Part shown: positions 277-28,273 of the stretch, piece by piece
Layout of the letters: each line of letters opens with the position of its first letter
How positions within the stretch are numbered: the first letter of the stretch is position 1
Assembly (NCBI GenBank): GCA_963921275.4
Contig: OZ001293.3
Coordinates: forward strand, 5,216,001 to 5,280,000
From: an uncultured Hormoscilla sp.
Lineage (GTDB): Bacteria > Cyanobacteriota > Cyanobacteriia > Cyanobacteriales > Desertifilaceae
DNA: 64,000 nt
Reading direction: 5' to 3'
Notes under the pieces: model-generated
Seen by the model: the letters and a program-made list of their open reading frames with translations, nothing else
Told to the model about the DNA's origin: nothing
The model's database searches: none
Program-made: the position numbers and the translations under genes

Positions 277-1914
277 TTAAGGTGATGGGACTGTCCACCA
301 GGCTAAGGCATAGGGTTGTTCTGGTTCGTTAAGCTGTTGGCGATACTGGACGCGGATTTTATAACGGCCTGCGATCCGAATGCGGTGGAAAATATGTTCT
401 ACGCTGTCTACTGGGCTAACTGAGGACCAAATGCTTTTTCTGATGTCATTTTCTGCTGCTGGCATCAGGTATAGTTCCAGGTTGTTTAAGCCCCTATCCT
501 GAAATGTTTCCCCAACGTCATACTCGCTGTTATTGTTGGCATCTTCTAGTTCTACCCGTCGATTCCATGCTAAGATGATACTCACTATACTCCCAGACAC
601 CAAGGGTCGATCTAATACATAGTCCTTAAAGGTACTGTCATTCCCCTCTACTGTATTGTAATCCCAGCCTACTGGGGGCGCTGGCGCTTCTGGACCCCAC
701 TGACCGGGACTAAATTGCTGGTAGGCACGATAGGCATTTAGATGACCGGCTCCTACTTGAATATCCAGGGGAATTTTTTGATTGTAAAAGGCTTCGGAGG
801 CTAACCAGGAATGGTGATTTTGATCGAGAAGGGTGCGACTCATACCCAGGTTGAACCCGTCACCCCGGTCTTCTATTTTATTAGCAGAATTTAGCATTAC
901 TGCTTTCATGACTTCGTGACGGCGGGCATCCAGAGTCCATTGAACTGAGGTTTGGCCTGAATTGGCTATTTGCCTGTCTCCATATTCCTGTAGTAGGGCC
1001 AAGGTAGCAGTTGCGTGGGGGGCGGCAAAACTGGTGCCGCTGGCGCGGCTAATGCTACCGTCTAGGTTCACTAAGGGGATTTGATTGCCCGGTGCTACTA
1101 AACCGATCGATCGCCGATTGTCTATGTTAGTCTCCTGACCGATAATCCGCTTGGCAATCCCCACTTTCGGGTCGCCGATATTGGCAAAGTCGATTTTGCT
1201 GAATACTTCCTGTTCGCGCCTGCTAAAAGCCACATTGATGCCATTGTAGTTATCGGTAGGGATGGAAATGCCGCCTCGGCCCTGATTGCCCGCAATCACA
1301 TACAGGACATTGTGAACCCTAGCTGACCAGTCAATACATTGGGTCAGCAGGGCGTTGCCATCCAGAACGGCATTTGGCCGAGGGTCTTGACGCAAAGATT
1401 CGCCAAAACTAAAGTTGATCGCTCTGAGGTCGCCGCTATTTTGCATCGCTAGATGTTGAGTTGACAAGCATTCCTGTGGCTGTCCGCTGCGTCTGATCGG
1501 ACCCACTGCCGCTGAGTATAGCCTCGCTGCTGGGGCCACGCCGGGAAAGGCTTTATCTGAACTGATCATGATGCTGGCTACGTTTTGGGCGTGGCGATCG
1601 ACATGCTTATTAGTTTGGGCCTCATCATCCTGAAAGAACACCCGCGCTGGCCAAACCGCACGATTTTGGGCTACAGCTTTGTCGAGGCCAAACTTGCCTG
1701 GTCTGCCAATCTCTACTTGACCGATCGCTATCTTACGACCTCGCAAGTTATAGGGCGCTGCGTGCAGGCGCAGGGCATCGATCCCGGCGGATCCTACTGA
1801 TAAATCTTTTGATGCCAGCACTGGCCCAGGTACAGGGCACGCTGTACTCAGTCCCAAAATCAGGGATGCTAGTTTTTTCCATAGCTTCTGGCCGTTCAAG
1901 TCAGATCCTCCCAC
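277..1914 (-). CDS. S8 family serine peptidase (subtilase)
   Basis: 545-aa ORF with GTSFAAPH catalytic Ser motif, HAQNVA His motif, IAGN oxyanion motif and a hydrophobic N-terminal stretch; exact start uncertain. Confidence 0.88.
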   Translation of the reverse strand: MGGSDLNGQKLWKKLASLILGLSTACPVPGPVLASKDLSVGSAGIDALRLHAAPYNLRGRKIAIGQVEIGRPGKFGLDKAVAQNRAVWPARVFFQDDEAQTNKHVDRHAQNVASIMISSDKAFPGVAPAARLYSAAVGPIRRSGQPQECLSTQHLAMQNSGDLRAINFSFGESLRQDPRPNAVLDGNALLTQCIDWSARVHNVLYVIAGNQGRGGISIPTDNYNGINVAFSRREQEVFSKIDFANIGDPKVGIAKRIIGQETNIDNRRSIGLVAPGNQIPLVNLDGSISRASGTSFAAPHATATLALLQEYGDRQIANSGQTSVQWTLDARRHEVMKAVMLNSANKIEDRGDGFNLGMSRTLLDQNHHSWLASEAFYNQKIPLDIQVGAGHLNAYRAYQQFSPGQWGPEAPAPPVGWDYNTVEGNDSTFKDYVLDRPLVSGSIVSIILAWNRRVELEDANNNSEYDVGETFQDRGLNNLELYLMPAAENDIRKSIWSSVSPVDSVEHIFHRIRIAGRYKIRVQYRQQLNEPEQPYALAWWTVPSP

Positions 1915-3144: not shown

Positions 3145-4964
3145 CTATGCACTTGTGCTGTTCGCCATGGGAGAGGGTAGAAATCCGGGGTAGCATTCCC
3201 CTCGGCGTTGATTGTGTCGTCCGATTACCTCTTCTATCTTTTCCAGACGATGTTGAAACATTTTCAGAACCCGAATTGCTCGCGGGTCTTGAAAACTGCG
3301 ATCGCCAAAATTTGTAAATGCATTTGGATCGAGCTTGACGCCGACTGCTGTCAGGAATTGGAGCTGAACAAGAGTTAATTCTGTATCAGGGAGAAACCCA
3401 CTGATATCTGCTTCACTAACTGTTCCTTTGACGTTAGGGAGCGGCTGATAGATGGATCCAGGCATGTTGGGGACAAAGGTCGAGTAATCGTCTTGCAGCC
3501 AGGCTATGGCTAAGTGTTGAGGACCAGCAGTAAAAATGATTTGTGCGAGCAGGTCAACTAACTGGTTGCGATTAGTCAGACGCTCTGGTAGAAAAACTAC
3601 TCCCAAACCGCCATCGCTAATGGGGGTTCGTAAAGCTTGGAGCCAATTTTGCAGCTCAACATCCTGATGGACATCTATCGAGGTTTTATAGTAAATCCTG
3701 ACATATTGAGTAACATAGTCCCGCAGAGCCTCCCAGATCGGCAACCAGTCGTCACGATAGGGGAAGTTAGGCAACTGTTCGCGATCGTTGACGCCGCGCA
3801 AGTGCAAATTGTTGGGGAAGGCAAAGTCGCTGAAGTTACTAAATAGTTCCGAAGTGCCTTGATTGACAAGGTTGAGGGAATTTTCTAAAATACCTGGTAA
3901 AGTTAAGTCGGCAAATTCCTCTGGATTGATGAGTACCCGATCGCCAAGGGCATTGATCGCCATTGTAAACTCAAAATGGGGCTGCAAAAGCACATACAAG
4001 GGATGGTTCTGGGCAAGTTCCCGTGCAGTTGCCAGTGCGATGGGTTCCAAAGCAAGATGAGTTTGACCCAGGTGGCGTATGAGTTCAAAGATGCTGAGTT
4101 CAGCCATCTGGGCGACGATCTTAGCTAGAGTCCAGTCTACCCCATCCAGAGGCGTGCAGAGCAAACTCCCCCCTGGCACCTGTCCCAACTGGATCGCAAT
4201 CGGAATCAAGGGCGATCGGGGGTTGCGGCGATCTGCAAAATAGAGGGAAATGGGGCTAGTAAGAAATCGGCCTGCTTGCGGGGTAAGATTATCAAGTGCC
4301 GCATAATCAGTAACAAACATAGATCCCGATCGAATAGCGCTGTTCAGGGTTTCTCCTACATCACCAACCACGGCCCGAAAAATTTCATTTGTTATGGCAA
4401 TTTTGTCGCGAATGCGGTAATTGGGTGCCAAAACATTGGTCAGTTCCATGGGATTGGTGCCAGAAAGCCGCTGCTGGGCAAATGTAGCATTCTGGCGTCC
4501 ACTGGTGGCAACATCTGGCAGGGGCAGGATGGGAAAGACAGCCCCGTAGTCCTCCAGACTGCGAAAAGGCACGGGATTTTCTAGAAATGCCTCTTGATTG
4601 GCTGCAAGTTGGGATCCCAAGATTTCCCTGTTAGCTTGATACTTTTCAGAAAAGGCTTCCTGAGGAGGTAAATTAGCGACGCGGACAACATTTGGCAGCC
4701 TCGTCACTAACTGATATTCTTGGCGTGCCTGTTGCAGCTGCTGTTGACGTCTTAGTCTGGCTATAGGTCGATCATCTTGGGGCAAGGATGGGATCTGCCG
4801 ATTTCTGGGTACAGTAAGTCTTGAGGTTTCATTGCTATAGGTCAGCAAAGCTTCCAGACCCGGGGGGCGCAGGCAAAACCCATCAGCGCTAGCATGGTGC
4901 GGCGCGATAGGACGTATTGATGCCTTAATTGTTCATGACGTTGGCGTCTAGTTGGAAATCCCAT
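3145..4964 (-). pseudogene. lipoxygenase with Tat signal peptide, frameshifted in a G6 run (or sequencing error)
   Basis: FAQQRLSGTNP, ELIRHLGQTH, GPQH, FVPNMP and C-terminal NSTSA motifs; upstream ATG 4964 encodes ...SRRTMLALMGFACAP out of frame with the body at run 4862-4867. Confidence 0.85.
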
Positions 4965-7003: not shown

Positions 7004-10000
7004 TCAAATTTCTCCAATGAAGATCCTGCTTTCGATTGTGTTTGTTGTATCGCTAGAGATGTTGACACTGAAATTGTCACCTGCAGTGAGGGTAAAAATA
7101 GGCTGACTAGGAATGGGTTGTGTAACCCTTACGTTGCCAAATCCGGAGGTAAGCTGGATGAAATCTTCTGTGGTATTAAAGTCCTGGATAGTATCAGAAG
7201 TTGCTCTTAAGCTATCAGACTCATCCTGGAAGTAGAAGATATCAGCGCCTGCACCTCCTTCCAATCGATCGCTTCCTAGACCGCCAATCAGAATATCAGC
7301 ATTACCCGAACCTGTCAACTCGTCAATACCGCTTGTATTGCTAGTGCCAACCAGGAGGAGTTGAGAGTCGGCGACGATAGGTTCTGCTGTCAAGTCTAAT
7401 GGGCGAGAATTAGTTGTGCTAGCCAACACATCGACAGTCACTGTTGCTGTTGCAGTATTAGCACCATTGCTGATGGTGTAGGTGAACTCATCATCAGCAG
7501 TTCCGGTGAATGTTATGTTATTTCCGCGGACGCCGACGGTATTGACAGGATCTACATCATCACCTAAAGTGATGGTCATAGAACTGTTATTGGTGTCATT
7601 GTCATTCAGCAATACTGGAATGGTCGTTGTTTCACCGGAGATGACGATCGCGAAATCATTATTGGCAGTAATTTGCTGGTTCCCGCCTAGCCTGACAGTA
7701 ACAGTAGCTGTATCCGTCTCGCCACCGCCATCCACGATCGTGTAGGTGAAGGTGTCCGTGCCCTCAAATGCTGTATTGATGCCAGCAGAAACTGTGTAGA
7801 TTAAGCCACTGCGATCGCTATTGACTGTTACAGTTCCAAGAGAGGAAGTATTGATCGTGGTGTTTGCGTTCTGAGAGATCCGAAGCCTCTCACCATTGGG
7901 ATCGGAGTCGTTATTCAGAACCGCCAGGGTTGCAGAACCCCTTGCTGGAATGATGAACCTATCATTAATCGCGGATGGCCGCTGGTTGCTGCCCACTGTT
8001 ATCGTTACTCGGGCCGTATCTGTCAAGGCTGTACCGTCACTTAGAGTTTCGTTGCCAGCTATAGTGTAGGTGAAGGTATCTGTGCCAATAAAACCATCCC
8101 TGGGATCGTAGACTAGCAAGTCATCAGTTCGGTCATTAGGGGTACCACCATTATTACGGGTAACAGTACCGTTAGATCCTTGACCGAAGCCCCTCAGTGA
8201 TGGATCCCCTGTTTGGTCCCTGTCATTGGCTAAGACATCGATCGTGGTGGCAGTGCCCTCGGAAGTGCTAGTTGTGTCCCGTAAAGCATTGGGAGGCACA
8301 ATATCCCCAAAAACCACGCGGATAGTTGCAGTTGAGGTTAACCCCCCTGCATCGCTGATGGTGTAGACAACCGTATCATTGCCCTCGAAAGTCTCTAAAC
8401 CACTGGCTGCAGTATAGGTGACCTGATTATCTGAAATAGCGACCCTGCCCAAAGAAGAAGAATTGTCCGCGCCAATAACTCTAAGAATGTCACCTATATC
8501 AGGGTCAGAATCATTTTCCAGCACATCAATAGTGTTAGTGATATTCGACGATCCTGAGATGGTTACCATGTCATTAACGGCTGTCGGCCCCGTGTTTTCA
8601 TCAATTGTCACCGTGACTGTCCCTGAGTCCGTACCTCCTTGGCCATCGGTGATGGTGTAGGTAAAGCTGTCCGTACCCACAAACTCTGTCTCTGTATTTT
8701 GAGGCGCGGTGTAGACTACCCCGTTATTGGAGATGGCAACGGTACCGCCATTTGCCGTTGAGGTTTGCACGCTGTCAACGGTGAGAGGATCGCGATCGGG
8801 GTCCGAGTCATTGGCTAGCAAATCGAGCGACTGAGCGCCACCCCCAGCAGTCACAGTTACCGTATCATTCACCGCCACTGGAGGCTGATTGCCCCCTACC
8901 TGGACTCTAATCGTCGCTGACTGCGTGCCTCCGCTGCCATCGCTGATACTGTAAGTGAAGCTTTCTGTACCAGAGAATGGCTGCCCATTCGGCATAGTCC
9001 GAGGGATATAGATTACCTGGTTATTCTCATCCAGGGTAGCGGTGCCATTATCTGGTGGGCTGATGCCCAGAATTTGCAACGAGTTTCCATCTGGATCGCT
9101 GTCGTTGTCCAGAACTGCGATCGTGGCCGTTGCTAGGGTTTGGATGGTACTACGGTCATCGATGGCTACTGGCGGTTGGTTTGTCAGCACTGTGACTGTT
9201 GCTGTATCTGTACGGCCATCGTTGTTGGTAATGGTGTAAGTGAAGGTATCCGTTCCCCCAGTAGCCCTGAAGCTACTATTGGGTTCGTAGATCACCACGT
9301 CATCGGCAGGGTTCTCTAGCGTGCCACTATCAAAGATGCGAGCGCTACCTCGTCCTGGAACACTCACTCCTGTGATAGTAAAGCTGCCATCTGGATCTGA
9401 GTCGTTAGCGCGTACATCGATCTCGATTGCTGCTTGGCCAGCAACTACTGTTGCCGTGTCATTATTTGCTACCAGTGACAGAGATCCTACTGCCACCGTC
9501 ACTGTGGCCGTATCTACCCCACCGTTGCCGTCACTGACTGTGTAGACGAAGCTGTCTATGCCACCGAAAGTTGCCGCTGGTGTGTATACTACCTCGTTGC
9601 CACTGAGGCTGAGGGTACCTCCATTTGGGGTGCCGCTGCCGATGCCCGATATGAAAAGGCTATCTTCATCTGCGTCAGTATCGTTAGCCAGCACATCGAT
9701 AGTTACAGCAGTCGCCAAGGCTGTGACTGCACTATCATCCACTGCTACTGGAGGTTGGGGACCGCCAATTGTGACTATCACTGTGGACGATGCTGTCCCC
9801 CCGCTCCCGTCACTGATGGTATAGAAGAATGCGTCTGTTACACGCACCAATGCGCTTGCTGCTGAATTCGTGGCTGGGGTGTATATCACCTGGTCTCCAC
9901 GAATCGCTGTGCTGCCATTGAGAGGGTCGCTGATGCCTACGATACTCAATTGCTGGCCATTCGGGTCGCTGTCGTTCTCTAGCACTGAGATGGAGGCCGT

Positions 10001-10897
10001 TCCTCCTGCTGGGATGGTGGTCCTGTCTCGGGCCGCGATCGGGTCTTGGTTTTCCACTACTGTCACATTCACCGTCGCCTGGTCCGTACCTCCGTTCCCG
10101 TCAGTTATGGTGTAGTTGAAGGTATCGGTACCGGTGAATGTCGTTTCGTTGGGGGTATATACTACCTGGGAGTCAACAATGCTCACCGTGCCGTTAGTAC
10201 CATTGCTGACGCTAGCGATCGACAGCACGTCTCTATCAAAATCGCTGTCATTTGCTAGCACATCTATCCTGTTGGCAATACCCGCGATCGCCTCTACCGT
10301 ATCCGCCACTGCATCGGGAGGCTGGTTGCCACCGACCGTCACCGTTACCGAGGCTGTTCCTGTCTCACCACGACTGTCAGTTATTGTGTAGATAAAGCTG
10401 TCTACCCCTGAGAATGTTGACTCTGCGGGGTTGTAGACCAACTGGTCGGAGCTAATGATCACAGCCCCGTTTGTTGGAGTTCCTACACCAGTTATCGAGA
10501 AGGAGTCTCCATCCGCGTCCGAGTCATTGGCCAGAACTGGTATTGTTGCTGTTCCACCCTCTGGGATCGTCGTCGAGTCTGGTGCTGCCGTCGGGGGACT
10601 GTTAAAGATAAAGTTTTCTGCACTCAGCTGTCCGAGAGTGATCCCGGCCAGAGTGAGAGTGAAGAATGGAGTATCAAACCTCACCCCGCCAATTATTGAG
10701 CTTGCTACTGCTAGCATGACCTCAGCGGTCAGTTCTGGAAATTCTCTAAGATTCAGAATGTCTCCAGTTTCAAACCCGATCGCCTGGTATATAGGTAATG
10801 CGTCGCCGCTTCGACCTACCACCACTACATCGTCTTCACCGATAGTCTCTAACAGATTTGCAGAGGTTGTCTCTGGTGTGAGATTAAAGGTTGCCAT
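7004..10897 (-). CDS. large Ig-like (Big_9/cadherin-like) repeat adhesin with C-terminal RTX motifs, ~11 repeats
   Basis: repeated PPxAxxD...VLxNDSDPDG...DTFTYTIxDG units; GSGNADILIGGLGSDRLEGGAGAD; no Sec signal evident. Confidence 0.9.
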   Translation of the reverse strand: MATFNLTPETTSANLLETIGEDDVVVVGRSGDALPIYQAIGFETGDILNLREFPELTAEVMLAVASSIIGGVRFDTPFFTLTLAGITLGQLSAENFIFNSPPTAAPDSTTIPEGGTATIPVLANDSDADGDSFSITGVGTPTNGAVIISSDQLVYNPAESTFSGVDSFIYTITDSRGETGTASVTVTVGGNQPPDAVADTVEAIAGIANRIDVLANDSDFDRDVLSIASVSNGTNGTVSIVDSQVVYTPNETTFTGTDTFNYTITDGNGGTDQATVNVTVVENQDPIAARDRTTIPAGGTASISVLENDSDPNGQQLSIVGISDPLNGSTAIRGDQVIYTPATNSAASALVRVTDAFFYTISDGSGGTASSTVIVTIGGPQPPVAVDDSAVTALATAVTIDVLANDTDADEDSLFISGIGSGTPNGGTLSLSGNEVVYTPAATFGGIDSFVYTVSDGNGGVDTATVTVAVGSLSLVANNDTATVVAGQAAIEIDVRANDSDPDGSFTITGVSVPGRGSARIFDSGTLENPADDVVIYEPNSSFRATGGTDTFTYTITNNDGRTDTATVTVLTNQPPVAIDDRSTIQTLATATIAVLDNDSDPDGNSLQILGISPPDNGTATLDENNQVIYIPRTMPNGQPFSGTESFTYSISDGSGGTQSATIRVQVGGNQPPVAVNDTVTVTAGGGAQSLDLLANDSDPDRDPLTVDSVQTSTANGGTVAISNNGVVYTAPQNTETEFVGTDSFTYTITDGQGGTDSGTVTVTIDENTGPTAVNDMVTISGSSNITNTIDVLENDSDPDIGDILRVIGADNSSSLGRVAISDNQVTYTAASGLETFEGNDTVVYTISDAGGLTSTATIRVVFGDIVPPNALRDTTSTSEGTATTIDVLANDRDQTGDPSLRGFGQGSNGTVTRNNGGTPNDRTDDLLVYDPRDGFIGTDTFTYTIAGNETLSDGTALTDTARVTITVGSNQRPSAINDRFIIPARGSATLAVLNNDSDPNGERLRISQNANTTINTSSLGTVTVNSDRSGLIYTVSAGINTAFEGTDTFTYTIVDGGGETDTATVTVRLGGNQQITANNDFAIVISGETTTIPVLLNDNDTNNSSMTITLGDDVDPVNTVGVRGNNITFTGTADDEFTYTISNGANTATATVTVDVLASTTNSRPLDLTAEPIVADSQLLLVGTSNTSGIDELTGSGNADILIGGLGSDRLEGGAGADIFYFQDESDSLRATSDTIQDFNTTEDFIQLTSGFGNVRVTQPIPSQPIFTLTAGDNFSVNISSDTTNTIESRIFIGEI

Positions 10898-11005
10898 GTT
10901 TTTTGTTGCCTCACTAAGTACAATAACTACTGAACCAATTTATTTTTATGCTTTTTTTACCTTCCTTTTTTGACTTGCTGCTGGACTGCCAATTCAACCA
11001 GCTTT

Positions 11006-12370
11006 CTAAGTTTCTAATTGGATACTACCTCTGATTTCTTCCTCACTTGTTGTGTTAGCCAAACCGCTCAAGCTAATAATAAATTGCTCGGGCAGGAAAT
11101 CTGGTTCTGTATTAGGAGTGTTTAGGCCAATTGTAGCAAATCCCAAATCAATATTTTGAGTATTAATCTCTACATCATCACTACTAACCTTGATTCCTGG
11201 AGCAACGTTAAAATCAAGCACAATTGTATCTACTGTCTGGTCAAAACCAACAATATTATCTCCCCCTTCTGTGGGTGCATCTGGGTTCGCACCGCTGTCA
11301 GCCAAGCTACGATATATGAATTGATCTGCACCTGCACCTCCGGACAGAATATCCGCACCAATGCCACCAATAATTATATCATCGCCATCCTCACCTTGAA
11401 TTCTTTCGCGAGTTCCAGTAATTGAATCTAACCGATCGTCACCAATTAGCACATCGGCGCCGCTTGTACCAGTCAATGTATCATCATCTAGATCCACCAC
11501 AATATTGACTGTTGCTACGTCTGTTGCACCCTCACTATCAGCGATGGTATAAGTGAAGCTGTCAACACCTGTGAAGTCAGCATTTGGCGTGTATGACACC
11601 TGGTTACCCACGACGCTAACCGTTCCATTGTTCGCGGTGCTAACCCCACTAACCGAGAGCGTGTCATCAGCGTTTAAGTCAGAATCATTGATCGAAACTG
11701 GAATTAAAGCCTCTTCATTGGCAATAACTCTGACGCTATCATCTACAGCTACTGGTGAAGAGTTGGTTTCTACTGTCAGCGTCACTGTTGCTATGTCAGT
11801 AAACTCGCCATCGGTAATGGTGTAGCTGAAGCTATCATTTTCCGTGAAGTCTGCTGCCAGTGAGTAACTCAGAAAGTCATCGCTGCCATCGTCTGAGGTG
11901 CCGTTATCATTGAGGGTGATAGTACCTCCTGAAACTGAGGTGGTCGAAAAACTGTCGATCGATATCGATAACAGGTCATCATCCGAGTCGTTTGCCAGAA
12001 CCTGAATGTCGAGCGCGCTTCCGGCGATCGCCCTTGCCGTATCATCCGCTGCGAGGGGGGGGCCGTTCTGGCCCACTTCAATAAAATTTGCTACCGTCAG
12101 CTGTCCCAGGGTGATACCTGGAAGCGTCAGCGTTCCGAAGGGAGTCTCGATCCTCACACCTCCGACGATCTCCCTTGCACTATTAACTAGCATCTGCGCT
12201 GTCAGGGCGGGGAAAGCCGAAATATCAATCAAGTCAAAGGTTTCAAAGCCATTGACTATGTCCGTCTCGTTTGCTGATTCTGCTGGACTCACTACTACAT
12301 CAACCACCCCGAGGTTTGGAAACAAGTTCAGAGTATCTGCCACCTCGGCTGTCAGAATATAAGTTGCCAT
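11006..12370 (-). CDS. Ig-like repeat/RTX protein (2 repeats)
   Basis: two NDSD...DSFxYTI repeats and GGIGADILSGGAGAD nonapeptides. Confidence 0.88.
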   Translation of the reverse strand: MATYILTAEVADTLNLFPNLGVVDVVVSPAESANETDIVNGFETFDLIDISAFPALTAQMLVNSAREIVGGVRIETPFGTLTLPGITLGQLTVANFIEVGQNGPPLAADDTARAIAGSALDIQVLANDSDDDLLSISIDSFSTTSVSGGTITLNDNGTSDDGSDDFLSYSLAADFTENDSFSYTITDGEFTDIATVTLTVETNSSPVAVDDSVRVIANEEALIPVSINDSDLNADDTLSVSGVSTANNGTVSVVGNQVSYTPNADFTGVDSFTYTIADSEGATDVATVNIVVDLDDDTLTGTSGADVLIGDDRLDSITGTRERIQGEDGDDIIIGGIGADILSGGAGADQFIYRSLADSGANPDAPTEGGDNIVGFDQTVDTIVLDFNVAPGIKVSSDDVEINTQNIDLGFATIGLNTPNTEPDFLPEQFIISLSGLANTTSEEEIRGSIQLET

Positions 12371-12568
12371 GATTTATTACCTCAGTGAATTATGGGGACT
12401 GTTTTGTGGGTAGCGTTATTTCCTTTTCTTTTTCCTTTGTTCATTAGCCGCCTGCCCACCCCTTCTAGCAATGAGCATTCGGTTGGGTAGTTCAGGCGCT
12501 CCGCGCTCACCCTACTTTTTACAGGCACTATCGCTCAACTACAAGAGCGATAGGTTCCGCTATCAAGC

Positions 12569-14502
12569 CTAGAAGATCAGGGCATTTTGAATTTGAGCCG
12601 CCGTTGTTGCCGCATCTAAACCGCTCAACCGAATCGCAAATTGCTCTGGGAGGAAATCTGGCTCTGTGTTAGGAGTGAAAAGGCCAATCAAAGCTGTACC
12701 ATCCTCAATGAAGTCAAGATTAATTTGTACATCATCAAGAGTAACTGGTGTTCCGGGAGCCACATCAAAATTCAGTCCGATAGTATCCTCGGCTGGGTTG
12801 AAGCCCAGAATATCATCAACCCCTTCATTAGTTGCCGCTGGATTGGCACCGCTGTCAGCTAAGTCCAGATATACGATGCCTTCGGTCGTGACAATTACAT
12901 CATCTACTGAGATCGGGGGTTCATTCTCTGCTTGGGCTGTCACCGTTACAGTTGCCGTGTCCGTCAAATCCCCATCTGAGATCGTGTCAGTCAATGACAC
13001 ATCACCATTCCTATCACCAATAGTGTATGTAAAGCTGTCAGTTCCCGTGAACTCTGCGGCTGCCGAATACACTAGTAGTGTGTCATCTGTCGGGTTAAAT
13101 CGCGTACCGCCATTGTCGATAGTGACCGTTCCGCCCTCTATTGTTGTCGCGGAGAAACCGACTATATAGATATCGTCGCCATCTGGGTCTGAGTCATTGT
13201 CCAGCACTGCGATCGTCTCTGGAGTTCCTTCTGTAGCTGTCACTGTGTCATCAAGCGCGAGCGGGGGCTGGTTTGCTGAGATCGGGGGTTCATTCTCTGC
13301 TTGGACTGTCACCGTTACAGTTGCCGTGTCCGTCAAATCCCCATCTGAGATCGTATAGGTGAAGCTGTCTGCGAGCGTTCCCCCTGTCTCTACTGCCGGT
13401 GGACTATAGATCAACCTTCGTCCGAAGATCAAAAGTTCCCCGCCTGCTGCCGTCGCCCGGGGGATTCCCGAGATCCTCAGCCGGTCGCCATCTGGGTCAA
13501 AGTCATTGTCCAAAACTGAGATTCGAGTGAAGTCAGTAACTGTCACCGCGTCATCGGTTGCCACCGGGGCTACATTTCCGCTTTCTACCTCACCGTTACA
13601 GTTGCCGTGTCAGTCAATGACACATCACCATTCCTATCACCAATAGTGTATGTAAAGCTGTCAGTTCCCGTGAACTCTGCGGCTGCCGAATACACTAGTA
13701 GTGTGTCATCTGTCGGGTTAAATCGCGTACCGCCATTGTCGATAGTGACCGTTCCGCCCTCTGTTGTTGTCGCGGAGAAACCGACTATATAGATATCGTC
13801 GCCATCTGGGTCTGAGTCATTGTCCAGCACTGCGATCGTCTCTGGAGTTCCTTCTGTAGCTGTCACTGTGTCATCAAGCGCGAGCGGGGGCTGGTTTGCT
13901 GAGATCGGGGGTTCATTCTCTGCTTGGACTGTCACCGTTACAGTTGCCGTGTCCGTCAAATCCCCATCTGAGATCGTATAGGTGAAGCTGTCTGCGAGCG
14001 TTCCCCCTGTCTCTACTGCCGGTGGACTATAGATCAACCTTCCTCGGAAGATCAAAAGTTCCCCGCCTGCTGCCGTCGCCCGGGGGATTCCCGAGATCCT
14101 CAGCCGGTCGCCATCTGGGTCAAAGTCATTGTCCAAAACTGAGATTAGAGTTTCTTCAGTAACTGTCGCCGCGTCATCGGTTACCACCGGGGCTACATTA
14201 CTGTTAAAGATAAAGTCTTCTGCCCAACTCAGCTGTCCGAGAGTGATCCCGGCCAGAGTGAGAGTCAAGAATGGAGTATCAAACCTCACCCCGCCAATTA
14301 TTGAGCTTGCTAATGCTAGCATGACCTCAGCGGTCAGTTCTGGAAATTCTCTAAGATTCAGAATGTCTCCAGTTTCAAACCCGATCGCCTGGTATATAGG
14401 TAATGCGTCGCCGCTTCGACCTACCACCACTACATCGTCTTCACCGATAGTCTCTAACAGATTTGCAGAGGTTGTCTCTGGTATGAGATTAAAGGTTGCC
14501 AT
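12569..14502 (-). pseudogene. mosaic Ig-like repeat protein with a 1-nt frameshift near 13588
   Basis: ORFs 13585-14502 and 12569-13564 join if CTACCTCACC is restored to CTACCCTCACC as in the paralogous site near 16713. Confidence 0.8.
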
Positions 14503-14760
14503 GTTTTTTGTTGCCTCACTAAGTACAATAACTACTGAACCAATTTATTTTTATGCTTTTTTTACCTTCCTTTTTTGACTTGCTGCTGGACTGCCAATTC
14601 AACCAGCTTTCTAAGTTTCTAATTGGATACTACCTCTGATTTCTTCCTCACTTGTTGTGTTAGCCAAACGCATCTAAAGTGCTTCAGGCGCTCCGCGCTC
14701 ACCCTACTTTTTACAGGCACTATCGCTCAACTACAAGAGCGATAGGTTCCGCTATCAAGC

Positions 14761-17700
14761 CTAGAAGATCAGGGCATTTTGAATTTGAGCCGCCGTTGTT
14801 GCCGCATCTAAACCGCTCAACCGAATCGCAAATTGCTCTGGGAGTAAATCTGGCTCTGTGTTAGGAGTGGAAAGGCCAATCAAAGCTGTACCATCCTCAA
14901 TGAAGTCAAGATTAATTTGTACATCATCAAGAGTAACTGGTGTTCCGGGAGCCACATCAAAATTCAGTCCGATGGTATCCTCGGCTGGGTTGAAGTCCAG
15001 AATATCATCAACCCCTTCATTAGTTGCCGCTGGATTGGCACCGCTGTCAGCTAAGTCCAGATATACAAATCGATCTGCGTCTTCGCCTCCCGACAAGATG
15101 TCTGCACCCAAGGCACCAGTGATCGTATCATTGCCAGCTGCACCATCTATACGTTCTCGTATTCCCCTTCCCCCAAGAGCTATGCTGAGCATATTGTTAC
15201 CAACAATCCAGTCATCACCGTCAGTACCGATTAATTGACCAGCGGGCTGCACGTTGATGCTGACTACTGCTGTCCCTGTCGCACCTGCTGGGTCGCTAAT
15301 GGTGTAGGTGAAGCTGTCGTCACCGGTGAATCCTGCATCCGGTGTGTAGGATACCAGGGCCCCATCTACGCTAGCGGTCCCATTAGCTGGATCTGTGACG
15401 CCATTTATTGTCAGCGCATCATCTGGATCTGAGTCATTATCTAGAACCGTGATGTTGATGGGAGTATCGGCAGCAATAATACGAGCATCAGCCACCGCGA
15501 TCGGGGCCTCGTTGGCCTCTACTATCACTGTCACTGTCGCCGAGGCCGTACCGCCTCGACCATCAGTAATGCTGTAGGTGACGTCGTGCGTGCCATTAAA
15601 CCCAGCATCTGGGGTGTATAGGATCCGATCGTCAGTGGGATCGTCTGGAGTGCCATTCTCATCAATGATGGTCGTACCGTTAGCTGGGTCTGTGACTGAG
15701 GTGATTTCTAAAGGATCGTTATCTGGGTCTGAATCATTATCCAGCACAGCGATTGTAACTGCAATTCCCTCGGTGGTTGTGGCCGCCTCATCTTGAGCGA
15801 TCGGGGGTTGATTATCCGGTTCTACTGTCACAGTTACTGTCGCCGTGTCCGTCAACTCACCGTCAGAGATCCTGTAGGTGAAGTTATCCGTTACTAGCGC
15901 ATCTACTGCGGGTGGCGTATATATCACTGTCTCTCCATCCAGGCTAACTGTTCCGCCTATTGCTGTGCCTGATAGTCCCTCGATCCTCAGCGGCGCGTTC
16001 TCCGGATCTGAGTCATTATCCAGAACAGAGATCGTTGCTGCGATGCCTTCGGTCGTGACAATTACATCATCTACTGAGATCGGGGGTTCATTCTCCGCTT
16101 GGACTGTCACAGTTACAGTCGCCGTGTCCGTCAAATCCCCATCTGAGATCGTATAGGTGAAGCTGTCTGCGAGCGTTCCCCCTGTCTCTACTGCCGGTGG
16201 CGTATAGATCAACGTTACTCCGAAGATGCTAACTGCCCCGCCTGCTGCCGTCGCCTGGGAGACTCCCTCGATCGTCAGCTGGTCGCCATCCATGTCAAAG
16301 TCATTGTCCAAAACTGCGATCGCCTCTGGAGTTCCTTCTGTAGTTGTCGCTGCGTCATCTGCTGCGATCGGGGCTTCGTTAGGTTCTGGTACTGGCTCAA
16401 CCGTGACAATCCCGACAATAACTGTAGCAGTGTCTGTCAACTCGCCATCACTGATGGTGTATGTGAAGCTGTCATTACCTGTGAAACCCGAAGCGGGAGT
16501 ATAGACCAGAGAGTCATCTGCTGTTAGCAAGAAGGTGCCGTTGCGATCGAGAGTTATAGTACCACCCTCTCTTGTCCTTGTCGGGAAGCCTGCCAGAGAT
16601 ATCTCGTCACCATTCGGATCAGAGTCATTGTCCAGCACTGCGATCGTCTCTGGAGTTCCTTCTGTAGCTGTCGCCGTGTCATCGGTTGCCACCGGGGCTA
16701 CATTTCCCCTTTCTACCCTCACCGTTACAGTTGCCGTGTCAGTCAATGACACATCACCATTCCTATCACTAATGGTGTATGTAAAGCTGTCAGTTCCCGT
16801 GAAATCTGCGGCTGCCGAATACACTAGTGTGTCATCTGTCGGGTTAAATGGCGTACCGCCATTGTCGATAGTGACCGTTCCGCCCTCTGTTGTTGTCGCG
16901 GAGAAACCGACTATAGAGATCTCGTCGCCATCTGGGTCTGAGTCATTGTCCAGCACAGCGATCGTCTCTGGAGTTCCTTCTGTAGCTGTCACCGTGTCAT
17001 CAAGCGCGAGCGGGGGCTGGTTTGCTGGCGGCACCACTGTCACGTTTACCGTGCCTGCAGCGGTTAACTCCCCGTCCGATATTGTATAGGTGAAGTTGTC
17101 TGTTCCCGTGAACCCAGATCGCGGTGTATAGACCAGGTAGTCGTCAGTGCTATCAGATTCAGTATCATTATCAGCAAGGCTTACCGTTCCTCCCGCTCCT
17201 GTTAAAGTATCAAAGCTTAACAGTGAAACACTTGTTCCGTTTGGATCGAAGTCATTATCCAGCACAAAGATGTTGACTTGACTATCTCTGCTTGTGCTCG
17301 CCACGTCGCTTCTGGCGATCGGGGGCTGGTTTTCCGGCTCTATTACCTCCACCGTCACCGTTGCCGTGTCAGTAAACTCGCCATCCGATATACTGTATCC
17401 GAAGCTGTCTGTGCCTAGAAACCCTGCTGCTGGAGTATAGATCAGGGTGTCATCCCCCCCGTCTTGGGGCGTGCCGTTATCATTGAGGGTGATAGTTCCG
17501 CCATTGTCAGTCTCCTGATCAAACGCAGTCAGGACGATATCATCTCCATTCAAGTCAAAGTCGTTCGACAGTACATCAATATCTACAGGAGGATCGCCTT
17601 GCCTTGTTGTCACGCTATCCTCTATTGCATCGGGTTCATTATTGGGATTCACTGCCACCGTTACTGTAGCGCTTTCTATCTCTTCGCCTACTGAAATGCT

Positions 17701-18249
17701 GTACTCGAAACTATCTGTGCCTGTAAAACCTGCTGCTGGCGTGTATAACAGCGAGTCATCTGTCCTGTCCTCTGGCGTTCCATTTTCATTGCGGGTTACG
17801 GTCCCCCCTTCATCCGTTAACTCTGCAAAGCTAATCAGTTCGATCGCCCTTCCCTCTGGATCCACGTCGTTTGCCAGGACATCGATGGTTACTTGTCCGC
17901 CTTCAGAAGTTGAAACGTTTGGATCGTTTGCTGTTGTCCTGTTTAAGACAATCAATCTGTCACTCAGTTCTCGCAGACGAGGCAGAGATACTCCCACGAG
18001 GGTCATACTACCAAACCGACCCGACAATCTAGTGAACGTTCCATCTGGATCTCCAAATGCATTTGCTAATACCTCCTCTCGAGTTATACCTGGGTAGTCT
18101 GAAAAGTCGATCCTGTCTGTTAAGACGTTAAAGGAGTTAATGATGTGGCTGTTTGCTTCATTACCCTCCGGGACGTATACGTAATCAATTTCGTTGTTTA
18201 CCTCCATGTTTACCAGTAACTGGTCTGGAGTTAAATTGTATGTTACCAT
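14761..18249 (-). CDS. large Ig-like repeat adhesin with C-terminal RTX motifs, ~9 repeats
   Basis: repeated PxAxDD...VLDNDSDP...FTYTISDG units; GAAGNDTITGALGADILSGGED. Confidence 0.9.
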   Translation of the reverse strand: MVTYNLTPDQLLVNMEVNNEIDYVYVPEGNEANSHIINSFNVLTDRIDFSDYPGITREEVLANAFGDPDGTFTRLSGRFGSMTLVGVSLPRLRELSDRLIVLNRTTANDPNVSTSEGGQVTIDVLANDVDPEGRAIELISFAELTDEGGTVTRNENGTPEDRTDDSLLYTPAAGFTGTDSFEYSISVGEEIESATVTVAVNPNNEPDAIEDSVTTRQGDPPVDIDVLSNDFDLNGDDIVLTAFDQETDNGGTITLNDNGTPQDGGDDTLIYTPAAGFLGTDSFGYSISDGEFTDTATVTVEVIEPENQPPIARSDVASTSRDSQVNIFVLDNDFDPNGTSVSLLSFDTLTGAGGTVSLADNDTESDSTDDYLVYTPRSGFTGTDNFTYTISDGELTAAGTVNVTVVPPANQPPLALDDTVTATEGTPETIAVLDNDSDPDGDEISIVGFSATTTEGGTVTIDNGGTPFNPTDDTLVYSAAADFTGTDSFTYTISDRNGDVSLTDTATVTVRVERGNVAPVATDDTATATEGTPETIAVLDNDSDPNGDEISLAGFPTRTREGGTITLDRNGTFLLTADDSLVYTPASGFTGNDSFTYTISDGELTDTATVIVGIVTVEPVPEPNEAPIAADDAATTTEGTPEAIAVLDNDFDMDGDQLTIEGVSQATAAGGAVSIFGVTLIYTPPAVETGGTLADSFTYTISDGDLTDTATVTVTVQAENEPPISVDDVIVTTEGIAATISVLDNDSDPENAPLRIEGLSGTAIGGTVSLDGETVIYTPPAVDALVTDNFTYRISDGELTDTATVTVTVEPDNQPPIAQDEAATTTEGIAVTIAVLDNDSDPDNDPLEITSVTDPANGTTIIDENGTPDDPTDDRILYTPDAGFNGTHDVTYSITDGRGGTASATVTVIVEANEAPIAVADARIIAADTPINITVLDNDSDPDDALTINGVTDPANGTASVDGALVSYTPDAGFTGDDSFTYTISDPAGATGTAVVSINVQPAGQLIGTDGDDWIVGNNMLSIALGGRGIRERIDGAAGNDTITGALGADILSGGEDADRFVYLDLADSGANPAATNEGVDDILDFNPAEDTIGLNFDVAPGTPVTLDDVQINLDFIEDGTALIGLSTPNTEPDLLPEQFAIRLSGLDAATTAAQIQNALIF

Positions 18250-18357: not shown

Positions 18358-20265
18358 TTATAGTTCAAAGAACACTGTTTCTCTGATTTGGGCTTCTGTT
18401 GTATTTGTCGGTAAGCCAGTCAGCGATATTTGAAATCCGGTTGCGTCTTCATTCGAGTCTACAACTGTCAGTATTGCCACACCGCCGCCTATGCCTACCA
18501 GGCCTACCCTTACTTCGTCTTTACTTACTTGTGCGCCATCAACTTCAAACAACAGCCCAATTCTATCTCCATCTGCCAGGCTGTAATCGATTATTATATC
18601 TGCTGGCTCGATTGTTGCATCTGGGTTCGCACCACTCTCTGCCAGATCGAAATACAGGAACGTATCTGCGCCAGCTTCACCTTCTAACCTGTCGGCCCCC
18701 AAGAGTCCATACAGGGTATCGTTTCCTGCGCCTCCTATGAGGTTATCTTGGGGGTTTGACGCTGACACCAATTGGTTTGTTCCGATAATCAGGTTGCTAT
18801 TTGCGTCACCTGTTATTTCTGCGGGCTGACTATCATCGGTGAGATTGACCTCTTGTACGGTGAGATTGACCTCTGCTGTGACTGTCTCTCCCGGTTCGTC
18901 TTGGATGGTGTAGGTGAAGCTGTCGGTACCGCTGAAGTCGTTATTCGGTTGGTATGATACCCGCTGACCGTCCTCTGTTATGCTGGTCGTTCCGTTGCTC
19001 GCTTCTTCGACGGTGGTAATTCGCAATGAGTCTCCTTCGTCTTCGTCTACGTCATTGATCAGAACTGGGATTGGGGTGGTTGTATTCGCTGGGATGATTA
19101 CGCTTGCTAGGTCGTTGGCCACTGGGGCTGTATTCGATCGTGGCAACACCTCTACCGTCACCGTGGCCACACTTGTCAATCCCTCACTATCGGCGATCGT
19201 GTAGGTGAATGTGTCCGTGCCGGAAAATGCGGCGTCTGGGGTATATACCAGCATGGCGCCGTTTAGGGCGATCGTCCCCCCGTTGCTTGTTTGCTGGTCA
19301 AAGCTGGCTATTGATATTTGCTCACCATCTGGGTCAGAGTCATTGGCCAGTACGGCTATGGTGACTGCTGTATTGAAGGCTGTTTCTGTGGTGTCGTTTA
19401 CTGCGTTCGGGGGTTGGTTTGTTGGCACTGTCGGCAATTCTGGGCGATCAGGCGTTTCTGGTAATACTGGTATCAGCGAAGGTGTTGGCGAAGGTGTTGG
19501 CAGCTGTCCCACTGGCAGAGTCGGCGCAATAACGAAATTCGCTGCATTGTCTAGTTCCTCCAGGGTTACTCCTTGCACCACCGCCAAAAACGCTCCCGTC
19601 TCTGAGTTCAAGATCGCTATTCCTGCTGTGACTTCCTCGAACTCCAGATCCGCAAAAGTTAAGCCGCCATCTAGACCGATGAAGTCCACGTCTAACATAA
19701 AATCCACGAATAAGTCTGCATCCGTGACATCATTCCCACCGCTGGTGCCATTACCTATAACCGCCACCACAAATATATCCGAGTCGTCCCCACCAGTTAC
19801 GGTATCTGCACCTATGTCGCCAAACAGGGTGTCATTGCCTCGGTCTCCAAATAGGCTGTCATTTCCCCTGCCTCCAAACAGCCAGTCATTCCCTTGGCCA
19901 CCGTAGAGGATGTCGCTGCCTACGTTGCCCGAGAGAACGTCATCGTTCTGGTTACCCATTAGGTTGTCATTGCCTTGACCACCAAACAGGCTGTCGTTGC
20001 CTTGACCACCAAAGAGGCTATCGTTACCCTGGTCTCCAAATAGGCTGTCCTCACCTTGGTTGCCAAACAGGCTGTCGTTGTCCATCCCGCCGGATAGGGT
20101 GTCGTTCCCTTCGTCTCCTGCCAGCTGGTCATTACCTTGGTTCCCTTGTATATCGTCATCACCCTCCATACCACCTAAGGTGTCATTCCCTTCCAAGCCA
20201 ATGATTATGTCTGGGCCTGGGGTGCCCAGGAGAAATTCCAAGCTAGCTGTATCTATTAATGCCAT
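18358..20265 (-). CDS. RTX (hemolysin-type Ca-binding) protein with two Ig-like repeats
   Basis: long N-terminal GGxGNDxLx array, Pro/Thr linker, two Ig-like repeats, C-terminal RTX module. Confidence 0.9.
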
Positions 20266-25172: not shown

Positions 25173-26693
25173 ATTAAACTAAGTAAGGGTGTCACCACTC
25201 CTACTCGTCTTCAGAACCGGACTTGAGACTTTCACCTCATCCGGCTCCTCAGTAACGTCATCCTTGTCATGGATACGGCTATTACTACCATCACTGGCAG
25301 TTTTAGTATCGTGGCAATGTTTGTGCAGCAACTGTAGATTGGGATACCAGTCCTTGCCCCCTTTGGATAGGGGTAGGATGTGGTCTACTTCCCATTTGTC
25401 GCCGTCCCTAAACGTTAGTCCGCATTGTTCACATTTGCCCTTTTGTCTTTTGAGCAGGTTCACGACCCTTGTGCTCAACTCTGGGCTCTTACCTAATCTT
25501 ATGCTCCAATATGGTAGGTTACCGTCGTATGGGCTAGCTGTCCCTTTTACCTTTATTTGTCTGATTATCTCAGTTTCGGCGTGTTTGGTTAGCGTCACCT
25601 CTGTGCTTTTGTCTGTCTTACCTCTGAAACACCATTTAACTTCCTGGTTTACAGACCAGTATTTACTAGCTATCCAGTGGCTTGACTTGTTGGGATGCCT
25701 TCTCTTTGCCCATTGCCATAGTATCTCCCATAAGTATTTATCCATGTTGGCGTAAGTTTCCTTACTTACCACCGTTCTGAAGTAGTTGGCCCATCCCCGT
25801 ATTACCGGGTTTAGCCTGCTAATCAGGGCTGCTTGTGGTGCCGTTTTATGGCTGGTTACGATTTGCGCTAATCGTTCTTTATGCTTCCCTATAGATTTCT
25901 TGCTGGGCTTGACTATGGTTTTGAAGCCTAGGGGGGATTTTACCAGTAACCTTTGGAGTCTGCGAACCATCCGCTCGTTGCCTTCCAGTGCCGCTCTGTA
26001 AATTCGTTTTTGCAACTTAAAGACTACCCGCTCCAGCCGAGGCCAAGGAATATCCTTCCATTCATTCATCGATTCTGAAACCGTGCTCATGACGTATGCA
26101 TTGCTACTTACAACTTCACAATTGACGTTACCGTGAGGGCGTCAGCGTATCCTATCCATTACAGACAGGCGTTTGCTTCTCCACGAAATCTCTCCCAAGT
26201 ATGACCTGCCTGATGAAAGCAGATGTTGCGCCTGTGGTGGCTACTCTACCTATCGACCAGTGGTAGAGAGTGCATACCTGGGTTACTTCGTTCCTCTAGA
26301 TGATTGGTTGTAGTTTTAGGTGGACTCTATATGCCGGGTTTATTGTCAGTGCTTATTGGTCGGTTAGGGAACCGCCAATGACCATTATCCTTTCCCTTTT
26401 GGGTCAGCGTGTAAGCCTTTCCGCTGGTTGATGTGACGACACTTATGAGTTTTCGCTTTCGCTCACCATGACCACTTGCTTGGCGATCACCGATTTAGGC
26501 TACCAGTCAGTGCGCCTTTTAACCCCGCTTTACGGATTGATGCCATCGCTACCGTAGGGGTTACGCTTTCACTCCTGCACCTGGAGGGGTGGGCTTTCAC
26601 CACCATCATCTAAAAGTTGTCAGGGCTAATGGAACCCTGAGTGGTCCAAATTTTTGACTTGTGTCAAGTTATTTTACACTAAACGAATCGCAC
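25173..26693 (-). mobile_element. group II intron encoding an RT-deleted intron-encoded protein (inner intron)
   Basis: 5' GTGCGATTCGTT at 26693; D5 GAGCCGGATGAGGTGAAAGTCTCAAGTCCGGTTC; 3' TTAGTTTAAT at 25173. Confidence 0.9.
25179..26090 (-). CDS. group II intron-encoded protein retaining the N-terminal extension, maturase X domain and HNH endonuclease, RT core absent
   Basis: W..I.W..LERVVFKLQKRIYRA fused to GFKTIVKPSK...LNPVIRGWANYF; CEQC...EVDHILPLSKGG...NLQLLHKHCH; no YADD or PQG motif. Confidence 0.88.
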   Translation of the reverse strand: MSTVSESMNEWKDIPWPRLERVVFKLQKRIYRAALEGNERMVRRLQRLLVKSPLGFKTIVKPSKKSIGKHKERLAQIVTSHKTAPQAALISRLNPVIRGWANYFRTVVSKETYANMDKYLWEILWQWAKRRHPNKSSHWIASKYWSVNQEVKWCFRGKTDKSTEVTLTKHAETEIIRQIKVKGTASPYDGNLPYWSIRLGKSPELSTRVVNLLKRQKGKCEQCGLTFRDGDKWEVDHILPLSKGGKDWYPNLQLLHKHCHDTKTASDGSNSRIHDKDDVTEEPDEVKVSSPVLKTSRSGDTLT

Positions 26694-28117: not shown

Positions 28118-28273
28118 TGCACTAACCTAGTTCTGTCAAGAAGACGGACAACTATCCGAAAACCGTTCGAGAATTCGCAAATCTTCGCCCAGGTTCTAGC
28201 ATAAGCCAAAATACTCATTACAAAAATGGGATGCACCCATGTGCAACTCCTTCAGTTCCATTCACATATATTA

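What the first reader, a model, noticed from the sequence alone, without database searches (positions are those of the whole stretch)
12491..14669. Third adhesin gene is a recent mosaic assembled from pieces of two neighbours
Seen as near-identical DNA blocks: 14200-14669 = 10598-11064 (N-terminus, upstream region and tail of the preceding gene); 12491-12873 = 14684-15065 (C-terminus and downstream region); 12874-12985 = 16041-16151; ~12984-13277 and ~13600-13900 = ~16736-17025. There is also an internal ~620-bp duplication (~12985-13570 vs ~13608-14197). Junctions keep the frame except for one 1-nt loss near 13588, and the RTX nonapeptide block is skipped. Inference: ongoing cassette shuffling that generates new adhesin variants.
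Basis: partly seen in the sequence, partly recalled or inferred. Interest (0 to 1): 0.7.

Follow-up and report, generated by a model that had tools for sequence, protein, structure and literature searches.

The report
Patchwork adhesin gene with fast-evolving patch
A sponge-associated cyanobacterium carries a real, recently built patchwork copy of its neighbouring surface-protein genes, likely made by ordinary duplication and deletion; one small part changed its amino acids far faster than the rest, likely under selection, and a one-base loss now splits the gene.

Summary
Observation confirmed, and it is not a misassembly. Contigs of three public runs (one study) break exactly where the assembly predicts; the repeats show 1.6-1.8x depth in two runs; the A/D junction and the 1-nt loss sit on contigs at single-copy depth. 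The mosaic is a 2,192-bp insert between 384-bp direct repeats in a five-gene Big_9/tandem-95 array of a Hormoscilla-like cyanobacterium; three congeners have two genes here. 'Ongoing cassette shuffling' is not supported: the junctions share no site (0-3 nt microhomology), no alternative joint was seen, no recombinase lies nearby, and the genome has 60 comparable local duplication clusters. Best reading: stepwise duplication, amplification and deletion while the chimera was translated, then a frameshift. Excess over neutrality is only borderline (P 0.05-0.13). The scan found nothing like this sequence on other DNA; earlier notes on this genome's LRR arrays describe a similar pattern.

The parts
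12491..14682 (-). 2,192-bp insert; removing it restores gene D - spacer - gene B
14683..15066 (-). 3' end of gene D plus 78 nt of downstream spacer; direct repeat of 12491-12874 (4 differences in 384 nt)
   Evidence: about 1.7x depth in X1 and X2
14670..14682 (-). 13-nt filler at the join where 1,426 nt (rest of spacer and most of a gene-B copy) are missing; occurs once in the genome; a 9-mer of it matches the D 3' end
   Evidence: X4 contig 14369-14712
14503..14669 (-). copy of the last 59 nt of gene B and the 108-nt B-A spacer with A's GAGG ribosome-binding motif; identical to the donor
14200..14502 (-). copy of gene A codons 1-100 (4 of 4 substitutions non-synonymous, plus one inserted Trp codon); donor module folds like the RTX beta-roll cap region of Serratia LipA (Z 10.4, rmsd 2.3, 92 aligned)
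13900..14199 (-). hybrid Big_9 domain copy 1 (9 codons of D domain 5, then D domain 6); junction to A with 0-nt microhomology
   Evidence: 140-bp junction contig in X1-X3
14020..14172 (-). fast-evolving patch, copy 1: 27 of 150 nt differ from D domain 6; 18 amino-acid vs 2 synonymous codon changes; 6-nt deletion; 5 Arg gained
13589..13899 (-). copy of D domain 4; joined by a backward jump with 3-nt microhomology (CAG)
13585..13588 (-). one base lost from a G3 run; TAG stop ends ORF C1 (14502-13585, 305 aa)
13277..13576 (-). hybrid Big_9 domain copy 2; 9 of the 10 differences across the 594-nt duplication lie in its first 177 nt; all 8 changed codons alter the residue
12983..13276 (-). second copy of D domain 4, truncated; joined onward with 3-nt microhomology (ACG)
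   Evidence: junction contig seen as a loose end in X1 and X3
12874..12985 (-). end of a third hybrid copy plus start of D domain 7; joined to the C-terminus with 1-nt microhomology, skipping D domains 7-9 and the RTX repeats
12569..12874 (-). copy of D's last ~100 codons (likely type I secretion signal region); end of ORF C2 (13564-12569, 331 aa)
   Evidence: signal position from PMC3034196
14761..18249 (-). donor gene D, 1162 aa, 9 Big_9 domains plus RTX repeats, intact
11006..12370 (-). gene B, 454 aa, 2 Big_9 domains plus RTX repeats, intact
7004..10897 (-). donor gene A, 1297 aa, 11 Big_9 domains plus RTX repeats, intact
18358..20265 (-). gene E, 635 aa, N-terminal RTX roll plus 2 Big_9 domains, first gene of the array

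Best explanation
The 2.2-kb insert is a real, near-fixed chimeric copy of neighbouring Big_9/RTX surface-protein genes that likely arose by ordinary tandem duplication followed by several short-homology deletions, was likely translated and under selection on one domain for a time, and is now split by a one-base loss that likely inactivates it. Shown: block order, junctions, frameshift, near fixation, patch divergence. Inferred steps: (1) a duplication from inside D to codon 100 of A put A's upstream region and N-terminal module in front of D repeats; (2) D domains 5 and 6 recombined into one hybrid domain; (3) the unit 'domain 4 + hybrid' was amplified to about three copies; (4) deletions with 0-3 nt microhomology or a 13-nt filler removed the extra B copy, most of the third unit, domains 7-9 and the RTX repeats; (5) amino-acid changes piled up in the first five strands of the hybrid domain, before and after step 3, likely through selection on what it binds; (6) the frameshift came last. 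The order within steps 2-4 is not fixed by the data.
For: Block map and junctions. Read support and about 1x depth of mosaic-only contigs, 0.95-1.18 in X1 and X2. All four coding junctions are in frame; joint chance about 0.02 given their microhomology classes; three indels are multiples of 3. Both hybrid copies share most patch changes, and the third partial copy shares three derived synonymous changes, so amplification followed divergence. Patch 27/150 nt vs 20/1397 elsewhere, p 9e-17. dN/dS 2.3-3.0 vs 0-0.84 in the same window of 23 control domain pairs. 1 of 12 framework columns changed vs 20 of 42 others, p 0.013. Polarity 18 mosaic-derived, 2 D-derived, 6 unclear. Tree branch 0.27 vs 0.042. 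Model folds at pLDDT 94.7. Three congeners have two genes here; 60 local duplication clusters genome-wide; RecA and MutS intact.
Against: dN>dS against neutrality is borderline: simulated P 0.05-0.13 for codons 10-61, a window chosen after seeing the data, and P 0.17-0.39 for codons 10-102; the hand-tallied whole-gene count (43 non-synonymous, 10 synonymous) fits dN/dS=1, P 0.15. The non-coding copies are identical (0 of 245 nt), which makes about 18 replacements in so short a time demanding; gene conversion could hide the true age. Ligand, secretion and expression are untested. The runs come from one study and may include the source sample.
Confidence: 0.68

Rival explanations
1. Dead-on-arrival duplicate: the copy was never useful; the patch is an older relic that escaped gene conversion while conversion kept the rest similar to A and D.
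For: Whole-gene tally does not reject neutrality (P 0.15); a frameshift is present; one 15-nt tract (M30P) looks converted from D domain 4; some synonymous changes match paralogue states.
Against: Framework columns are spared (p 0.013-0.017); four junctions and three indels are in frame; no stop codon in the patch; after the 623-bp duplication 9 of 10 new differences fall in the same first 177 nt again (p 1.4e-4) and all 8 changed codons alter the residue; hybrid residues 31-45 have 15 of 15 third positions identical but 6 of 15 residues changed.
Confidence: 0.14
2. Programmed or ongoing cassette shuffling: a dedicated system keeps recombining domain cassettes among the array genes.
For: Junctions fall at or near domain borders and are in frame; D and B also combine modules found in other combinations in relatives; the 384- and 470-bp repeats are substrates for RecA.
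Against: No shared junction motif, microhomology 0/3/3/1 nt; no alternative joints in four runs (weak, contigs drop rare forms); no PF00589 match in the genome (control 14 of 14 positive) and no PF00239 match in the window; donors A, B and D are intact expressed-type genes, not silent cassettes; the product is frameshifted.
Confidence: 0.07
3. The gene is still functional as two polypeptides (C1 305 aa, C2 331 aa), with C2 restarted at GTG 13564 and secreted through D's C-terminal signal.
For: Both ORFs are open and each holds two Big_9 domains; copy 2 of the patch, which lies in C2, has its own amino-acid changes and no synonymous ones; the insert is near fixed although 384-bp repeats could excise it.
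Against: The GAGG motif, which lies 9-13 nt before the starts of the five array genes, is 23 nt from the GTG and 12 nt from an ATG-TAG dead end; C1 lacks the C-terminal signal; copy 1 has A6V at a column 95% conserved.
Confidence: 0.08
4. One multi-template-switch replication event, with error-prone synthesis next to the junction, made the whole mosaic and the mutation cluster at once.
For: The patch begins next to the A/D junction; several junctions have 0-3 nt microhomology and one has a partly templated filler.
Against: The two hybrid copies share most changes and then each gained more in the same patch; multi-hit codons are not in excess (5 vs 4.2 expected); framework is spared.
Confidence: 0.02
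5. Repeat-induced misassembly or strain mixing.
For: Highly repetitive region; no single record spans it.
Against: Contig break points and depth match the assembly; mosaic-specific and D-specific contigs coexist at single-copy depth in 3 runs.
Confidence: 0.01

Closest known systems
Bartonella henselae badA island (PMC8859334; abstract and passages read)
   Same: Repetitive adhesin array with pseudogenes; genes formed by fusing the N-terminal part of one copy to the C-terminal part of a neighbour; domain duplication and deletion; frameshift inactivation.
   Different: BadA is a trimeric autotransporter, the reported fusion overlap is 39 bp, and variation was shown across eight isolates. Here the domains are Big_9/RTX, junctions have 0-3 nt microhomology, only one arrangement is seen, and one domain shows focal amino-acid divergence.
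RTX adhesins, LapA/MpAFP type, with 'mix-and-match' architecture (bioRxiv 10.1101/2025.09.30.679566; passages read)
   Same: Tandem Ig-like extenders, C-terminal RTX/type I signal region in the donor genes, variable extender number; HlyB and HlyD homologues are present.
   Different: No retention module detected; the N-terminal module instead folds like an RTX beta-roll cap; no LapG match; proteins are 454-1297 aa, below that paper's 1,500-aa filter; the mosaic has lost the nonapeptides.
BapP of Pseudoalteromonas tunicata (PMC12153261; passages read)
   Same: Big_9 (PF17963) repeats with DxD motifs, no LapA-type retention module; supports an adhesin-like reading.
   Different: BapP was tested by knockout, has Calx-beta repeats, and was not described as a chimera in the passages read.
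Gene duplication-amplification followed by remodelling deletions (general bacterial mechanism; recalled, only one passage of PMC13732712 seen)
   Same: Tandem duplication with junctions, amplification, and trimming by deletions.
   Different: Here the end state is a chimeric gene with about seven reconstructable events and a fast-evolving patch.
Diversity-generating retroelements (defining adenine-specific mutagenesis recalled)
   Same: A short variable region beside near-identical repeats.
   Different: Changes are not adenine-specific (donor bases G 9, A 8, C 7, T 3).

Membership tests
Tandem-95 / Big_9 (PF17963, NF012211) repeat protein | Big_9 domains above the curated cut-off | tested here: met
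   C1 120 bits, C2 97 bits vs cut-off 23.6. NF012211 is over its cut-off of 90 for A, D and E but not for B, C1 or C2 (73-79 bits).
RTX adhesin (LapA type) | Tandem Ig-like extenders | tested here: met
RTX adhesin (LapA type) | C-terminal nonapeptide beta-roll | tested here: not met
   PF00353 hits A, B, D and E but neither mosaic ORF.
RTX adhesin (LapA type) | N-terminal retention module | tested here: not met
   No Pfam or NCBIfam retention hit; the module's best fold matches are RTX C-terminal regions, LipA 522-613 Z 10.4; no PF06035 LapG in the genome.
RTX adhesin (LapA type) | Secretion by a type I system via the C-terminal ~60 residues | not testable with these tools
   HlyB and HlyD over cut-off and adjacent at C1:775616-779301; TolC not searched; secretion untested.
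RTX adhesin (LapA type) | Demonstrated adhesion or ligand | not testable with these tools
   Inferred from domain families only.
Site-specific cassette-shuffling system (shufflon type) | Shared recombination sites at cassette borders | tested here: not met
   Junction sequences are unrelated; microhomology 0, 3, 3, 1 nt and one 13-nt filler.
Site-specific cassette-shuffling system (shufflon type) | Linked recombinase | tested here: not met
   0 PF00589 matches in a 96.7% complete genome; 10 PF00239 matches, none in the window.
Site-specific cassette-shuffling system (shufflon type) | Several arrangements coexist in a population | tested here: inconclusive
   No alternative joints in contigs of four runs, but contigs drop rare variants.
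Diversity-generating retroelement | Adenine-specific substitutions from template to variable repeat | tested here: not met
   8 of 27 differences are at A, with A 41 of 156 bases in the donor segment.
Diversity-generating retroelement | Linked DGR reverse transcriptase | not tested
   Only a group II intron maturase fragment (25179-26090) was found among the 22 ORFs scanned in 1-30 kb; no genome-wide DGR search.
Chimeric gene from tandem duplication | 5' part from the downstream gene, 3' part from the upstream gene, with duplicated intergenic DNA in direct orientation | tested here: met
   A 5' end plus spacer joined to D 3' end plus spacer; excision of 2,192 bp restores D-B.

The most novel reading that the evidence does not exclude
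The hybrid Ig-like domain is a snapshot of a binding surface being remodelled extremely fast: about 18 replacements and five new arginines while flanking non-coding DNA changed by 0 of 245 nt, with both later copies hit again at the same codons and a parallel arginine gain in a homologous domain of another lineage. In its boldest form this symbiont has a local, non-DGR way of focusing mutation on adhesin binding faces, shared with its hypervariable LRR arrays.
Probability: 0.08. Interest if true: 0.78.

Novelty: new member of a known kind. Interest (0 to 1): 0.36.

Why it matters
As a mechanism it is ordinary: adhesin arrays are known to fuse, duplicate and lose domains. Its value is as an unusually readable case, in which about seven rearrangements, a burst of amino-acid change and a final frameshift can be partly ordered from one genome of an uncultured sponge-associated cyanobacterium. 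The fast patch points to specific residues of a domain type usually treated as an inert extender as a candidate binding face, which gives a direct test: compare binding of D domain 6 with the two hybrid domains. If mutation were locally targeted, that would be a new diversification mechanism, but nothing here requires it.

Tried and rejected
Frameshift as a homopolymer sequencing error: rejected. Donor of the patch elsewhere in the genome: none; best match is D domain 6 at 84%. Lost ancestral donor like domain 2 of the congeners' gene: rejected, 54-58% vs 81% for D domain 6. Patchwork of micro-conversions from local paralogues: only one 15-nt tract; other matches are at chance level. DGR-type mutagenesis: no adenine bias. 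Excess of multi-base codon changes: none. 13-nt filler as a dispersed mobile snippet: it occurs once in the genome. Ku-dependent end joining: no PF02735 match (genome 96.7% complete). Promoter scan: 4 sites vs 4.6 expected, uninformative. DNA hairpin energy of the patch: same as the donor. A metagenome scan with the D-like protein P0010 returned 68 loci, best segments at most 46% identical, so no closer strain; the first attempt got no answer from the machine. The two 'skips' table 5 have 29-nt sides and 'between: not known' and are treated as repeat artefacts. Foldseek on the hybrid domain gave only weak cadherin/Ig-like hits, best E 5e-4. Paper searches listed no description of this locus; term searches in two Hormoscilla papers found no such passage. 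Supplements were not opened; Table S6 of PMC7313196 lists adhesive-domain genes and may bear on the family context.

Full report
Setting. The window is part of a 6.88-Mb contig in a 7.03-Mb, 96.7% complete genome. The 8-mer GCGATCGC occurs 4,738 times (that this is the cyanobacterial HIP1 motif is recalled). The closest named relatives of gene A are Hormoscilla genomes at 76-77% identity, a genus described as filamentous sponge symbionts (PMC6520454, passages). On the minus strand lie E (20265-18358), D (18249-14761), the mosaic C (14502-12569), B (12370-11006) and A (10897-7004). All carry Big_9/cadherin-like domains; A, B, D and E also carry RTX nonapeptides.

Observation. In gene direction: D's 3' end and 78 nt of spacer; a 13-nt filler; the last 59 nt of B, the B-A spacer and A codons 1-100; a hybrid domain (9 codons of D domain 5, then domain 6 and six codons of domain 7); D domain 4; the native 4-to-5 linker with one base lost; a second hybrid; a truncated domain 4; the end of a third hybrid and the start of domain 7; D's last ~100 codons and spacer; then B. 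The whole is a 2,192-bp insert between 384-bp direct repeats, and its removal restores D-spacer-B.

Is it real? I computed the k=31 unitigs the assembly should give and compared them with public contigs (28 of 86 pieces shown). The listed long contigs of X1 and X2 end at the predicted boundaries. Repeat contigs have 1.62-1.84x (X1) and 1.73-1.82x (X2) the median single-copy depth, against 1.69-1.77x predicted; X3 is noisy. In one search, X1-X3 each hold a 124-bp contig across the frameshift with no difference, a separate D-type contig that keeps the base, and a 140-bp contig across the A/D junction. Mosaic-only contigs are at 0.95-1.18x in X1 and X2 and 0.83-1.38x in X3, so the arrangement is near fixed. 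Limits: one study, possibly including the source sample; run type not on record; no record spans the region; contigs drop rare variants; an excised allele would create no new junction and shows only in depth.

Relatives. G002, G003 and G004 (same genus) carry two genes here: one with an E-type N-terminus, D-like repeats and its own C-terminal type, then the A orthologue (in G002 the A orthologue is split into two ORFs). None has the mosaic. An unnamed protein, P0010, joins a D-type N-terminus (63%) to the congeners' C-terminal type (78%), so modules have been reassorted repeatedly in this lineage over long times. The A-type N-terminal module was found in 5 longer proteins among 657 candidates: two from this window and three named Hormoscilla.

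Mechanism of assembly. The four coding junctions have 0, 3, 3 and 1 nt of microhomology and no common motif. All are in frame; using the in-frame fraction of equally microhomologous position pairs in D, the joint chance is about 0.02. Three indels are multiples of three; one is not. The two hybrids share most derived changes and the third fragment shares three synonymous ones, so the 623-bp unit was amplified after it had begun to diverge, and a single event cannot explain the structure. RecA and MutS are intact, Ku was not found, no tyrosine recombinase was found, and none of 10 serine-resolvase matches lies in the window. The chromosome has 60 clusters of local direct repeats of at least 200 bp and 95% identity that are not dispersed elements, so local duplication is common here. 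I infer stepwise duplication, amplification and deletion, filtered for frame while the gene was translated.

Codons 10-61 of D domain 6 differ from hybrid copy 1 at 27 of 150 nt, against 20 of 1,397 elsewhere in the duplicated DNA (p 9e-17) and 0 of 245 in the non-coding copies. There are 18-19 amino-acid and 2 synonymous codon changes. dN/dS is 2.8-3.0 or 2.3-2.4 (different gap placement), against 0-0.84 in the same window of 23 orthologous or paralogous domain pairs. Against six outgroup domains, 18 differences are derived in the mosaic, 2 in D and 6 unclear, after dropping six overhang columns; one of the two D-derived calls, M30, is shared by P0010 and so is probably ancestral. The tree gives 0.27 on the mosaic stem and 0.042 on D. 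Changes avoid the framework: 1 of 12 columns at least 70% conserved vs 20 of 42 others (Fisher p 0.013, permutation p 0.017, 65 background domains). The AlphaFold model is a seven-strand sandwich at pLDDT 94.7. Changes fall in the first five strands and their loops, none in the last two, often at alternating positions; that these face outward is inferred, as no coordinates were available. The middle segment gains five arginines, the highest basic count among 78 domains; the next, with four, is the domain of P0010 that starts with the same DFDMDG motif. Between the two tandem copies 9 of 10 differences fall in the first 177 of 594 nt (p 1.4e-4), all 8 changed codons alter the residue, and three codons differ from D in both copies with different residues.

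Against a strong selection claim. Simulated neutral placement gives P 0.05-0.13 for so few synonymous codons in a window chosen after the fact, and 0.17-0.39 over codons 10-102. A hand tally over the whole gene (43 non-synonymous, 10 synonymous) rejects the control dN/dS of about 0.37 (P 7e-6) but not 1.0 (P 0.15). Multi-hit codons are not in excess and there is no adenine bias. No other donor was found. Selection is the best reading, but relaxed constraint with conversion elsewhere is not excluded.

Function now. C1 keeps A's upstream region and GAGG motif but ends at the frameshift without a C-terminal signal. C2 would start at a GTG 23 nt from the nearest GAGG, whereas the array's genes have 9-13 nt. 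RTX proteins use an approximately 60-residue C-terminal signal (PMC3034196, passages), and HlyB/HlyD homologues exist, so the intact chimera would likely have been a secretion substrate with about four extenders, no nonapeptides, and an N-terminal module that folds like an RTX beta-roll cap (LipA 522-613, Z 10.4, rmsd 2.3, 92 aligned). Adhesion is inferred from families such as BapP (PMC12153261, passages). Nothing here tests expression, secretion or ligand.

Comparison and verdict. The closest precedent is the Bartonella badA island, with neighbour fusions, repeat shuffling and frameshifts (PMC8859334, abstract and passages); mix-and-match RTX adhesins are also described (10.1101/2025.09.30.679566, passages). 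The mosaic fails the tests for a LapA-type adhesin, a shufflon and a DGR, and meets that of a tandem-duplication chimera. Seven paper searches listed nothing on this locus. Unchecked earlier notes on this genome report LRR arrays with hypervariable binding faces; they are a lead, not support. Verdict: real, new member of a known kind, interest 0.36; the fast patch is the part worth following.

Noticed in passing
G000 whole genome: No tyrosine recombinase (PF00589) match at all, while all 14 control genomes have one; XerC/D-type resolution may be missing. Genome 96.7% complete; only 2 candidates scored.
   Followed up: no
window 10598-10897, 12071-12370, 17947-18249: Genes A, B and D begin with a ~100-aa module predicted (for A) to fold like the C-terminal RTX beta-roll cap region (Z 10.4 to LipA) but placed at the N-terminus without nonapeptides; sequence relatives in longer proteins were found only in this window and in Hormoscilla.
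   Followed up: partly
protein P0010, domain 4: Independent arginine gains in the same segment of a homologous Big_9 domain in another lineage.
   Followed up: partly
window 3145-4848 (-) and 277-1914 (-): A lipoxygenase (PF00305) and a subtilase (PF00082) lie downstream of gene A, whereas the three congeners have unrelated genes there.
   Followed up: no
window 23900-62000: Dense field of 70-99% identical repeats, with a group II intron maturase fragment (25179-26090) and a DDE transposase remnant (28288-28671; 28272-29288 has a 99% inverted copy at 42925-43941).
   Followed up: no
G000:C1:1373238-1373945 and C1:2037600-2041200: Paralogous Big_9/RTX genes elsewhere in the genome appear broken into pieces, suggesting wider decay of this family.
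   Followed up: partly
G000:C1, e.g. 3898699-3906149, 1441034-1443581, 6754336-6776437: Among the 60 local duplication clusters are kilobase-scale, over 99% identical repeats.
   Followed up: no
G000:C3: A 31-kb contig with 17.6% G+C and no GCGATCGC sites, unlikely to belong to this organism.
   Followed up: no
window 13529-13548: The changes private to hybrid copy 2 at codons 11, 15 and 16 together form a quasi-palindrome, so template switching could have made them (read; not tested).
   Followed up: no
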